Of a DNA stretch of 64,000 bases, positions 26,398 through 59,262 are shown piece after piece. Below the pieces are notes generated by a model that searched no databases, was not told where the DNA came from, and worked only from the letters and a program-made list of their open reading frames with translations. Made by a program: the position numbers and the translations under genes. Location of the stretch: assembly GCF_009914755.1 (NCBI RefSeq), contig NC_060928.1, one strand, 5' to 3'. Numbering within the stretch: the stretch's first letter is position 1; the number at the start of each line of letters is the position of its first letter. This DNA comes from the human T2T-CHM13v2.0 reference genome, Homo sapiens.

Positions 26398-27193
26398 CAA
26401 AATGCTCTTTTATAGTCAACACACAAAATTGCCTAGTTTTATTTGTGCCCTTTGTTCTGTAGACCTGCACTTTGTCACTCTTCTTTCTGTTTCATTTTCT
26501 TTCTCTATGTAAAAGACTTTCCACATTATTTGGGGTTGGAGGATTGAGGAATGGAAAAGCCATCTTGGATTTTTCTTCATTGCCAGTGGTAGATGGAAAT
26601 TCTCTTGCATTTAGAATACATAATTATAAATAGGATAAATGGAATAGTGAAAGACTAATAAGGTAATGTGAGTCACATAACACAAAAATAGTTATTGAAT
26701 CTCTCTCTACCCTAAATTAAAATGGACTTGTTATAATAAATTTTGTTTACTAGATCTTTGCTGGAGAACATTGTTTATTATACTTTTAGTATAAGCTGAA
26801 TGTTCATTCCTTGATACTGAACTCTGTTTTCCTTTGCTTATAATATAAGTCAACTTAATTTCTACATAGTGTTGGAAACTAATTTCAAAAGTGAAAGGGT
26901 AATACTAAAAAGATAATATTAAATAGATTCACTGTTAAGCAAGGTGATACAAATATTGCTAAATACGAGTTTTATGATTACATTGAATTTTTTTATCCAT
27001 TGTCTTCTTTCGAGGTCTACAAATAACTAGAGTTCTTTTCAGATACTATTTTATCTATTTGATTTGTACTGTAAGGCATATTCTGTGGTCAACATATGTG
27101 AGGACTGATGATACTGCATTATGTCAGATTGAAAGTGTACTTTGCACTTTTTTAGGAGACACCAGAATTTCTGTTTTACATAAATTGTACCCA

Positions 27194-27338
27194 GGCCAGG
27201 TGCAGTGGCTCACGCCTATAATCCCAGCACTTTGGGAGGCCAAGGTGGGAGGATCTTTTGAGTACAACAGTTCAAGCCCAGCCCAGGCAGCATACAGTGA
27301 AACCCTGTCTCTAAAAAAAAAATAGAAAAGAAAAAAAG
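27194..27338 (+). mobile_element. FLAM / Alu left monomer
   Basis: Monomer with A-rich tail. Confidence 0.8.
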
Positions 27339-27998
27339 AGCTGTATTCATAATGCAATTTTTAGGAGATGTGGAAATTATATCATCAAATAGTTTTTTTT
27401 TCCTTTTTAGATAATTTCCCTATATGTTTGCACTGCTTGCATATCTCATATGATTTTTCACATGTATATCAAATATTTAAAACCTTTATTCAGCACTTGT
27501 TATGTATCAGAAACTGTGCTGGATTGCTGGATGCTCAATATTACAGTATCATTCATAAGTCTATTTTATCCAGTTTTTTTTTTTTTTAAGGGAACAACAC
27601 TTAGTCCAGTTTAGGGACTTGCCCAAAGTTTCACAGCAAGAAAATACAAGAACTGATACTCATAAAGAACTGTTTCTTCCCCTGATGCACGGCCTTGCCT
27701 GGCTAGTGGTATAAAATATGACCACTTTCCAGCAAGAATGAAATTTTGAATTCTTTTCCTGAATTAATGTCTAGAAAATAGCCATATGATGAATACAGAT
27801 GTAAGTAATCCAAAAATGACAATTTCACTCTACTTTTTTTATTTTCTGCTTACAATCATTACAAATCACAGATATTCAAACAATTAGTGATATAATTAAG
27901 TAAACGGAGTTGGGCCTGGGAGGGAAGAAGAGAGTAGAGAGTATGAGAAATAAATGCCTGGGAGGGAAGAAGACAATAGTGAGTTTGAGAAAGAAATA

Positions 27999-28213
27999 AC
28001 CCTAAAACTCAAAGTATAATAAAAAAAATAAAATAAAATAAAATAAAATGGGGAGGCATGAATAATCCACCCCTTGTTTAGCATATCATCAAGAAATAAC
28101 CATAAAAATGGACAACCAGCAGCCCTCGGGCTGCTCTGTCTATGGAGTAGCCATTATTTTATTCCTTTACTTTCTCAATAAACTTGCTTTCACTTTAAAA
28201 AAAAAAAAAAAAA
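27999..28213 (+). mobile_element. Extremely 5'-truncated L1PA with a 3'-transduced MER41 LTR fragment
   Basis: L1PA terminus accctaaaactcaaagtataat plus A-rich tail, then MER41 sequence up to aataaacttgctttcacttt and a second poly(A). 11-bp TSD agaaagaaata at 27988-27998 and 28214-28224. Confidence 0.85.
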
Positions 28214-28846
28214 AGAAAGAAATATCCACATCATTGAAGATGAGAAGGGACCTTTTAAGTACACAGGAAATAAACCCAGGATGATTAGAAGAGAAAGAGC
28301 AAAGGTGAGGAGCTCAAGTGGAGGTTTGAGAGGTTAGCAGAACATGGATTGGAGGGCTTTTTACAACAAGTTTGAGGATTCTGAATTGATGAAATCGATG
28401 GGAGTTTTTAAAGTGAGAGAACATCAAATTTGCATGTTTCAAAGGTCAATCCTGCTGCAAGATGAAAGATAGATGGTAGGAAATCATGGGATGATGCAGA
28501 GAGATGATTTAACTATTGGTACACACAACAACGTGGGTGGACCTCAAAGCATTATGCTTAGTGAAAAAGTCTACCTCAATGGTTCCCTGCTGTATGATTT
28601 CATTTATATAACATCCCTGAAACAGTGAAACTATAGAGTTGTAGAACAGTTTAGTGGTTGCCAGGAGATAGGGATGGGGTGAGTAGTTGGTATGAATACA
28701 AAGGAGTAGCACAACACAATTCTTTAATAGTGATGAAACAGTTCTGTATCTTGAATGTGGTTGTGGTTATACAAATCTGTACATGAGATAAAATTGCAGA
28801 GAACTACACACATGCACACATGAATGGAGACTTTTTGAAATGGTGA

Positions 28847-29637
28847 TGTATTAGTTTGCTAAGGCTGCCATAACAAAGTAACAGGCACTGGCTGGCTTAA
28901 ACAACAGAAATTTACTGTCTCACCATTCTGGAGGCTAAAAGTCCAAGCTTCAACTGTCTGTAGGTTTGGTTTCTTCTGAGGCCTCTCTCCTTGGTTTGTA
29001 GATGACCACTGTCTCATTTTGTCTTCACGTGGTCATCCTGATATGGTTTGGCTCTGTGTCACCACCCAAATCTTATCTCAAATTGTAATACCCACATATC
29101 AGGGGAGGGACCTGGTACATGACCATTAACTTGGGAGGTGATTGGATCCTGGGAACAGTTCCCCCATACTGTTCTCATGATAGTGACTGAGTTCTCATGA
29201 GACCTGATGATGATTTTAAAAGTGTTTAGCAGTTACCCCTTCACTCTCTCTCTTGCTTGCTGTCATGTTAGACATGCCTTGCCTCCCCTTCACCTTCCGC
29301 CATGATTGTAAGTTCGCTGAGGCTTCCCTAGCCATGTGGAACTGTGAGTCAGTTTGACCAATTTGGTATAAATTACCCAATCTCAGGAAATGTCTTTACA
29401 GCAGTGTGGAAACAGACTAACCCACATCCTTTTGCTGTGTAATCTATGTCCTAATCTCCCCTTCTTATAGGGACACCAATCATATAAGATTAGGGACCAA
29501 CCATGTGACCTCATTTTACCTTAGTTACTTTTATAAAAGCTCTATGTCTCCAACTAAAGTCACATTCTGAAGTACTCAAGATTAGAACTTCAATGTATGA
29601 ATTTTGGGGAAAGGGGAGCATAATTGAGCCCATAACA
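28847..29637 (-). mobile_element. MLT1B-like LTR interrupted by THE1
   Basis: tgtattagtttgctaaggctgcc...cccataaca; 5-bp TSD ggtga at 28842-28846 and 29638-29642. Confidence 0.85.
29039..29424 (+). mobile_element. THE1D/MSTA-type solo LTR
   Basis: tgatatggtttggctctgtgtc...gactaaccca; 5-bp TSD catcc at 29034-29038 and 29425-29429. Confidence 0.88.

Positions 29638-58347: not shown

Positions 58348-59262
<915 letters not shown>

What the first reader, a model, noticed from the sequence alone, without database searches (positions are those of the whole stretch)
27988..28224. L1 3'-transduction of a MER41 LTR piece, with two poly(A) tails inside one TSD
Seen, in order: TSD agaaagaaata; the last 22 nt of a primate L1 (accctaaaactcaaagtataat); an A-rich tail; about 150 nt of MER41A/B-type LTR ending 14 nt after AATAAA (28177-28182); poly(A); the same TSD. 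The U5 part of the LTR is missing exactly where an mRNA would be cleaved, and the piece differs from the local MER41 at 58.3-59.3 kb. Known: L1 reads through its weak poly(A) signal and mobilises downstream DNA. Inference: the source L1 sat inside a MER41 LTR and used the LTR poly(A) site. The tag should identify the source locus and sibling insertions, a case that repeat annotation would list as two unrelated fragments.
Basis: partly seen in the sequence, partly recalled or inferred. Interest (0 to 1): 0.72.

Follow-up and report, generated by a model that had tools for sequence, protein, structure and literature searches.

The report
L1-carried copy of MER41 LTR
A jumping L1 element on chromosome 9 read through into the old retroviral LTR it sits in and dropped a 215-base copy of its own tail plus that LTR piece into an ADGRL3 intron, which is a clean but ordinary case of a well-known process.

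Summary
Window 27988-28224 holds, in order:
- an 11-nt target-site duplication
- the last 22 nt of an L1
- a patterned A-rich tail
- 153 nt of an LTR, ending 14-15 nt after AATAAA
- a 16-17-nt poly(A)
- the same 11 nt again

I found the source. At chr9:32.726-32.733 Mb of the same genome, a ~6.0-kb L1 with its own 16-nt duplication splits a solo LTR at exactly the nucleotide where the window's LTR piece begins. There the LTR runs on into U5.

Window and chr9 share four states that are rare or absent in 57 other copies. They are each other's best match (148 of 153, no gaps).

No sibling insertion was found in this genome.

Two features described in print name the LTR as MER41, of the type lacking the 43-bp STAT1 segment (MER41A-like). 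MER41 is a gammaretrovirus-like family dated in print to 45-60 My.

No virus ever integrated at this ADGRL3 site. The piece arrived second-hand through L1, roughly 5-15 My ago (wide error). Ape and monkey empty sites could not be checked.

This is a new instance of a known mechanism, of low general interest.

The parts
27988..27998 (+). Left copy of the 11-nt target-site duplication (AGAAAGAAATA)
   Evidence: chance about 1.4e-6
27999..28020 (+). Last 22 nt of an L1, a severely 5'-truncated stub
   Evidence: Aligns with the 3' end of the chr9 source L1 and of 12 of 12 other L1 copies. One letter (28010) is private to the window: 0 of 12 relatives carry it
28021..28044 (+). Internal A-rich tail with interspersed T, copied from the genomic tail of the source L1
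   Evidence: The chr9 source has a similar 30-nt patterned tail at the same place
28045..28197 (+). Transduced piece of a MER41-type LTR, running from the L1 insertion point in the source LTR to the LTR's own cleavage site. The first 16 nt (28045-28060) equal the duplication that flanks the source L1
   Evidence: 148 of 153 identical to chr9 with no gaps, the best of 30 loci compared. Four rare states are shared only with chr9. The printed MER41B motif matches 28066-28091 at 25 of 26
28177..28182 (+). AATAAA poly(A) signal of the LTR, used in place of the L1 signal
   Evidence: Eleven other LTR copies whose letters I saw end in poly(A) within 3-4 nt of the same site
28198..28213 (+). Terminal poly(A), 16 A (17 if 28197 is counted)
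   Evidence: Absent at chr9, where U5 follows
28214..28224 (+). Right copy of the 11-nt target-site duplication

Best explanation
This is an L1 3' transduction.

1. A MER41-type solo LTR has been on chromosome 9 since early anthropoid times.
2. Much later, a full-length young L1 inserted into it, at an A-run just ahead of ...GGGGAGGCATG, and made a 16-nt duplication.
3. A transcript of that L1 ran past the L1's own poly(A) signal. It was cleaved 14-15 nt after the LTR's AATAAA, about 150 nt downstream.
4. The L1 machinery nicked the ADGRL3 intron and primed on the new poly(A).
5. It copied the RNA back through the LTR piece, the templated A-rich tail and only 22 nt of L1 before stopping. The result is a 215-nt insert between 11-nt duplications.

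Shown: the anatomy, the source locus, the shared rare states and the natural use of that cleavage site.
Inferred: the RNA intermediate, the order of events and the dates.

The retroviral piece is real, but it never integrated here as a virus.
For: - Anatomy.
- Source locus. The chr9 LTR halves are at 32726234-32726574 and 32732602-32732835. An L1 of 5,997 nt (32726575-32732571) plus a 30-nt tail lies between them. The 16-nt AAAATGGGGAGGCATG is on both sides. The LTR is flanked by ACCG and ACCA, and U5 is present.
- L1 ends. Its first 900 nt and last 800 nt are collinear with 39 of 39 other L1 copies each.
- The junction 30-mer occurs exactly only in the window and at chr9. There were 5 matches genome-wide at up to 3 mismatches and 0 in the reversed-pattern control.
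- The window piece matches chr9 best, 148 of 153 with no gaps, against 92-97% for 28 other copies.
- Shared rare states in two independent samples. T at 28049: 0 of 28 and 0 of 29. A at 28112: 5 of 28 and 4 of 29. A 1-nt deletion: 1 of 28 and 0 of 29. C at 28176: 1 of 28 and 0 of 29. No other copy has more than 2 of the 4.
- The cleavage site is the LTR's own. Sixteen other copies end in poly(A) there: 7 of 38 hits and 13 of 38, union 16. I saw the letters for 11 of them.
- The LTR A-run is a repeated target of the L1 endonuclease. Two Alu insertions sit at the same nucleotide in other copies.
- The printed definition of a 3' transduction fits: duplications, L1, unique flank, downstream AATAAA, new poly(A) (PMC4862182, passages).
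Against: - No outgroup genome could be read, so no empty site has been seen.
- The nick site implied by the duplication is T-rich but is not the textbook motif as I recall it.
- The two branches are uneven. chr9 changed at 6 of 175 shared positions plus one 2-nt deletion, the window at 2 of 175. That is more than the rest of the chr9 L1 shows, with binomial P = 0.002 to 0.03 depending on the count used. The excess is unexplained.
- Genome searches scored only 39-40 of about 1,800-2,300 candidates, and some regions are closed. A second copy of the chr9 locus, or short siblings, could have been missed.
Confidence: 0.95

Rival explanations
1. Template-switch chimera. Reverse transcription started on a short LTR-terminated RNA (the R region alone) and jumped onto the poly(A) tail of a separate L1 RNA, with no shared source locus.
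For: The LTR piece starts just after a TATA-like A-run, so it could be taken for a full R-region transcript. Many LTR-terminated RNAs were retrocopied independently.
Against: The same L1-tail-LTR junction exists as contiguous genomic DNA at chr9, with the AAAAT variant on both sides of that L1. The internal tail is patterned like the genomic tail at chr9, not a pure poly(A).
Confidence: 0.01
2. Two separate nested insertions. A 22-nt L1 stub with its tail landed first, and an LTR retrocopy later landed in that tail.
For: A-rich tails attract L1-type nicking. Short LTR-end retrocopies with their own duplications do exist, for example L042.
Against: It would have to recreate by chance the exact chr9 junction and the four chr9-specific states. 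No second duplication is visible around the LTR piece.
Confidence: 0.01
3. DNA-level copying (duplication, or repair patching from chr9) rather than an RNA intermediate.
For: None specific. The chr9 and window stretches are collinear.
Against: The copy ends exactly at the LTR's cleavage site. It carries a non-templated 16-17-nt poly(A) that chr9 lacks, and it is bracketed by an 11-nt duplication.
Confidence: 0.02
4. Same mechanism, but the donor was a duplicate or lost allele of the chr9 locus rather than the reference copy itself.
For: The chr9 branch carries more private changes than expected from the rest of its L1.
Against: No second locus with the junction was found in this complete genome.
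Confidence: 0.03

Closest known systems
L1 3' transduction (read-through of the weak L1 poly(A) signal; described in PMC4862182, passages seen; the first descriptions by Moran, Goodier and Pickeral are recalled, not seen)
   Same: Duplications around the whole insert, L1 3' end, internal tail, unique 3' flank of the source, downstream AATAAA, new poly(A), and a traceable full-length source.
   Different: Nothing in mechanism. The flank carried happens to be retroviral LTR sequence and the terminator is the LTR's own signal. The L1 part is unusually short (22 nt), so it is close to an 'orphan' transduction.
MER41 LTRs (ERV1, gammaretrovirus-like; PMC9963469, PMC7663688 and PMC2897888, passages seen)
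   Same: The 26-nt motif printed as MER41B-like matches at 25 of 26. The family shows the printed 43-bp difference that holds two STAT1 sites 21 nt apart.
   Different: Only 153 nt of the roughly 560-nt LTR are here. It did not arrive by retroviral integration: there are no LTR ends and no 4-nt duplication at this site. It lacks the STAT1 segment.
L1-made retrocopies of retroviral transcripts (as described for HERV-W; recalled, not seen)
   Same: Sixteen other copies of this LTR end in poly(A) at the same site, with variable 5' ends.
   Different: Those copies run upstream into U3 or are simple truncations. None carries an L1 end and tail in front, or the chr9-specific states.
Template-switch chimeric retrocopies (U6-L1 type; recalled, not seen)
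   Same: Two unrelated RNA-derived parts inside one duplication.
   Different: Here the two parts are contiguous in the genome at chr9, so no switch is needed.

Membership tests
L1 3' transduction | One target-site duplication brackets the whole insert | tested here: met
   11 of 11 identical at 27988-27998 and 28214-28224
L1 3' transduction | An L1 3' end followed by an internal A-rich tail lies upstream of the extra sequence | tested here: met
   27999-28020 aligns to L1 3' ends in 12 of 12 copies plus chr9. Tail at 28021-28044
L1 3' transduction | The extra sequence is the immediate 3' flank of an L1 elsewhere, starting at the same nucleotide | tested here: met
   chr9:32732602 onward. The exact 30-mer junction is found only there and here
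L1 3' transduction | The extra sequence ends at a downstream poly(A) signal, with a new non-templated poly(A) | tested here: met
   AATAAA at 28177-28182, cleavage 14-15 nt later, 16-17 A. chr9 continues into U5 instead
L1 3' transduction | The source element is full length | tested here: met
   5,997 nt between the duplications. Both ends are collinear with 39 of 39 other copies each. The middle was not compared and the reading frames were not read
L1 3' transduction | An empty target site with a single copy of the duplication exists in species that predate the event | not testable with these tools
   No primate genomes are on hand
MER41 LTR (ERV1) | Sequence match to what print calls MER41 | tested here: met
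   Motif M2 of PMC2897888 Table 1 ('resembles MER41B') matches 28066-28091 at 25 of 26. Zero matches in 100 shuffles
MER41 LTR (ERV1) | A and B subfamilies differ by 43 bp that hold tandem STAT1 sites 21 nt apart (PMC9963469, PMC2897888) | tested here: met
   L047 has 44 nt where the other copies have 1 nt, with two TTCNNNGAA motifs 21 nt apart. The window and chr9 have the short form
MER41 LTR (ERV1) | Likeness to the print-named MER41 upstream of AIM2 | tested here: inconclusive
   BLAST found no hit in 69 kb around AIM2. A tandem STAT1 pair was found at chr1:158214339. Around it, 64 of 85 nt match L047, z = 5 against shuffles
MER41 LTR (ERV1) | LTR with TG...CA ends and a 4-nt duplication at a true integration site | tested here: met
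   At chr9 only: TGTCAG...GTAACA flanked by ACCG and ACCA, 3 of 4 identical. Not expected in the window and not present there
MER41 LTR (ERV1) | Match to the curated library consensus, with the subfamily letter | not testable with these tools
   No repeat library is on hand. The 'A-like' call rests on the 43-bp feature alone
Template-switch chimeric retrocopy | The two parts are not adjacent anywhere in the genome | tested here: not met
   They are adjacent at chr9

The most novel reading that the evidence does not exclude
The insert put a proven, sense-oriented LTR poly(A) signal, used at least 17 times in evolution, into an ADGRL3 intron during ape evolution. It could therefore give a lineage-specific truncated ADGRL3 transcript end. 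More broadly, this LTR family may act as a combined landing pad and terminator for L1-driven insertions, so some short poly(A)-ended pieces of it elsewhere may be orphan transductions from other sources.
Probability: 0.05. Interest if true: 0.4.

Novelty: new member of a known kind. Interest (0 to 1): 0.2.

Why it matters
- It is a clean, fully traceable example. Source and offspring are both in one complete genome, and shared rare states prove the link.
- It shows that a retroviral fragment in a gene need not mark a viral integration.
- It shows that repeat tables can hide one event behind two labels.
- It gives a dated marker for ape phylogeny at two loci.
- It does not change what is known about L1 or MER41.

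Tried and rejected
**Leads that gave nothing**
- Rfam scan of 27000-29500: no hit.
- AIM2 anchor for naming. I expected the print-named MER41 upstream of AIM2 to match this LTR by BLAST. It did not, with 0 LTR hits in 69 kb. Only a motif scan and a local alignment of 64 of 85 tied the two together. The name therefore rests on the printed 26-nt motif and the 43-bp feature.
- Chuong et al. 2016 is not held. I know it only through passages in reviews.
- Sibling search. I found nothing with the chr9 states among 38 non-self hits and 38. The short poly(A)-ended copies L041 and L042 lack the shared deletion and the shared C. Siblings shorter than about 60 nt, or in closed regions, would be missed.

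**Not in print, as far as I searched**
- A search for MER41 with transduction, LINE-1 and polyadenylation listed 307 papers holding 3 of the 4 terms. I saw only the top-10 listing, and none was about such an event. That is a thin basis.
- Supplement tables of transduction surveys are closed and may list this locus.

**Readings considered and dropped**
- R-region-only transcript with template switching.
- Nested double insertion.
- DNA-level copying.
- The local LTR at 58.3-59.3 kb as donor (opposite strand, 74-81% alike).

**Dating**
- No single clock is safe here, so I give a range built from several counts.

Full report
**1. What is in the window**

Read on the + strand, the region holds the following.
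- AGAAAGAAATA at 27988-27998.
- 22 nt that align with the very end of L1 elements, at 27999-28020. They align with 12 of 12 fetched L1 3' ends and with the chr9 L1.
- An A-rich tail with interspersed T, at 28021-28044.
- 153 nt of LTR sequence, at 28045-28197.
- AATAAA at 28177-28182.
- A run of 16-17 A, ending at 28213.
- AGAAAGAAATA again, at 28214-28224.

The same 11 letters at a fixed place have probability about 1.4e-6 given local composition. Rfam finds nothing here. The reference masks 28002-28229 as one repeat block. The insert is in the sense orientation of ADGRL3 and lies in an intron, according to the gene table supplied.

**2. The LTR piece is real LTR sequence**

A genome-wide search with 27999-28213 scored 40 of 2331 candidates.
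- One hit was the window itself.
- One hit was on chr9 and covered positions 1-199 of the query.
- The other 38 covered only the LTR part, at 90-95% identity.

In the 28 LTR-only copies saved as loci, the sequence continues upstream (U3) and downstream into a U5 that ends in ...GTAACA.

**3. The source locus**

The chr9 hit covers the L1 end, the tail and the LTR piece. Fetching around it and comparing with four LTR copies shows one LTR split in two.
- 5' part: chr9:32726234-32726574.
- 3' part: chr9:32732602-32732835.
- The two parts overlap by the 16 nt AAAATGGGGAGGCATG, which is present on both sides.
- Between them lies an L1 of 5,997 nt (32726575-32732571), followed by a 30-nt patterned A-rich tail.
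- The L1's first 900 nt are collinear with 39 of 39 other L1 5' ends at 96-97%.
- Its last 800 nt are collinear with 39 of 39 others at 98%.
- The LTR itself is flanked by ACCG and ACCA. That fits a solo LTR with a 4-nt duplication, 3 of 4 letters kept.
- At chr9 the LTR runs on past the cleavage site into U5.

The locus lies inside the lncRNA gene LOC105376017, on the opposite strand.

**4. Proof of the link**

- The 30-nt junction string occurs exactly only in the window and at chr9. At up to 3 mismatches there are 5 matches in the genome and 0 for the reversed control.
- Of 30 loci compared, chr9 is the best match to 28045-28197, at 148 of 153 with no gap.
- Against 28 copies picked for likeness to the window and 29 copies picked only for likeness to the chr9 U3, window and chr9 share four rare states:

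| State | First sample (28 copies) | Second sample (29 copies) |
|---|---|---|
| T at 28049 | 0 of 28 | 0 of 29 |
| A at 28112 | 5 of 28 | 4 of 29 |
| 1-nt deletion after 28127 | 1 of 28 | 0 of 29 |
| C at 28176 | 1 of 28 | 0 of 29 |

- No other copy in the first sample has more than 2 of the 4.
- The T at 28049 lies in both copies of the chr9 duplication, so it predates the L1 insertion there.
- Of the 5 differences between window and chr9 in the LTR piece, 4 are private to chr9 and 1 to the window. One of the chr9 changes falls in the poly(A) hexamer. It is carried by 0 of 28 and 0 of 29 other copies, so the signal was intact when it was used.

**5. The cleavage site and the landing site are natural features of this LTR**

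- Sixteen other copies end in poly(A) at this site: 7 of 38 hits and 13 of 38, union 16.
- I saw the letters for 11 of them. Cleavage falls within a 3-4-nt span.
- Their 5' ends vary from the full U3 to about 100 nt, as expected for L1-made retrocopies.
- None carries the chr9 states.
- Two Alu elements sit at the same nucleotide of the A-run in other copies (L036, L037). The spot is therefore a repeated target of L1-type nicking.

**6. Family**

No repeat library is on hand, so the name comes from print.
- Schmid and Bucher (PMC2897888, passages and Tables 1-2 seen) print a 26-nt motif that 'resembles MER41B'. It matches 28066-28091 at 25 of 26, with 0 matches in 100 shuffles.
- The same paper says MER41B has two STAT1 sites 21 bp apart.
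- A review (PMC9963469, passage seen) says MER41A lacks them through a 43-bp deletion. It also says the family comes from a gammaretrovirus that entered 45-60 My ago.
- One copy in my set (L047) has 44 nt where the others have 1 nt, with two TTCNNNGAA motifs 21 nt apart. The window and chr9 have the short form.

I therefore call it MER41 of the A-like type. The subfamily letter is provisional.

The anchor at AIM2 (PMC7663688, passage seen) was weak. BLAST gave no hit. A tandem STAT1 pair was found at chr1:158214339. Around it, 64 of 85 nt match L047, with z = 5.

Naming needed no inner genes, and none were fetched.

**7. Age**

Three dates are involved.

*(a) The LTR family.* Print gives 45-60 My. 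The chr9 LTR is 81-88% like other copies, which fits an old element.

*(b) The source L1.*
- It has 5-10 rare states in its last 800 nt, against a mean of 3.3-5.0 for its nearest group of 13 relatives and 1.1-2.6 for a younger group of 7.
- At rates of 0.09-0.22% per My per lineage (rates recalled, not from a call) this gives about 3-15 My.
- Window, chr9 and 4 of 12 relatives carry A where 8 of 12 relatives carry G, near the 3' end. By recall, that G marks the human-specific subfamilies, so the source would belong to an older subfamily.
- Print places the L1PA6-to-L1PA3 subfamilies between 26.8 and 7.6 My (PMC4083085, passages seen).

*(c) The copy event.*
- It cannot be older than (b).
- Calibrating on the same 153 nt, independent copies differ by 12.3% on average and window and chr9 by 3.3%. 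That ratio of 0.25 gives 11-15 My, with a Poisson range of 3.6-36 My.
- The window branch alone (2 of 175) gives 5-13 My.

Taken together, the event is roughly 5-15 My old. That is after the split from Old World monkeys. Which apes share it is untested.

**8. An oddity**

The chr9 branch changed at 6 of the 175 shared positions and also has a 2-nt deletion. Three of the changes are C-to-T within 15 nt. This is more than the rest of that L1 suggests, with P = 0.002 by the strict count and 0.03 by the loose one. I have no explanation. It widens the dates but does not touch the link.

**9. Comparison and verdict**

Every defining feature of an L1 3' transduction that could be tested is met (definition in PMC4862182, passages seen). 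The outgroup empty site could not be tested.
- A template-switch chimera, a nested double insertion and DNA-level copying are each contradicted by the chr9 locus or by the non-templated poly(A).
- The local LTR at about 58350-59260 (- strand, 74-81% alike) is not the donor.
- No sibling insertion was found, within the limits of searches that scored 39-40 candidates and skip closed regions.

The mechanism is textbook. The instance is clean and probably not described on its own. My one search on this (listing only) is a thin basis for that, and supplement tables that might list it are closed. Interest is low.

Noticed in passing
window 27914-27997: A 42-nt tandem duplication (two copies, 88% alike) lies directly upstream. 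The left target-site copy sits at the end of its second unit.
   Followed up: no
L036 (chr6:30739153) and L037 (chr15:43340789): Two Alu insertions sit at the very nucleotide of this LTR family where the chr9 L1 landed, which makes it a repeated L1-endonuclease target.
   Followed up: partly
L003, L007, L014, L019, L022, L025, L041, L042, L045, L047, L049 and five further hits: Sixteen copies of the LTR end in poly(A) at the same cleavage site, with 5' ends ranging from full U3 to about 100 nt. They look like L1-made retrocopies of LTR-terminated RNAs. I did not follow them upstream, where inner proviral sequence might begin.
   Followed up: partly
window about 58350-59260, minus strand: A related but much more distant LTR (74% and 81% to the two ends of copy L006), interrupted by other masked repeats.
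   Followed up: partly
L053, G000 chr1:158214339: This is the only pair of STAT1-type sites 21 nt apart in 69 kb around AIM2, on the AIM2 strand. It fits the print-named MER41 upstream of AIM2, yet it is only 64 of 85 identical to the B-like copy L047.
   Followed up: partly
L032:1552-1754 (chr9 source, 3' junction): There is an excess of private changes on the chr9 side of the shared 175 nt, including three C-to-T within 15 nt, compared with the rest of the same L1.
   Followed up: partly
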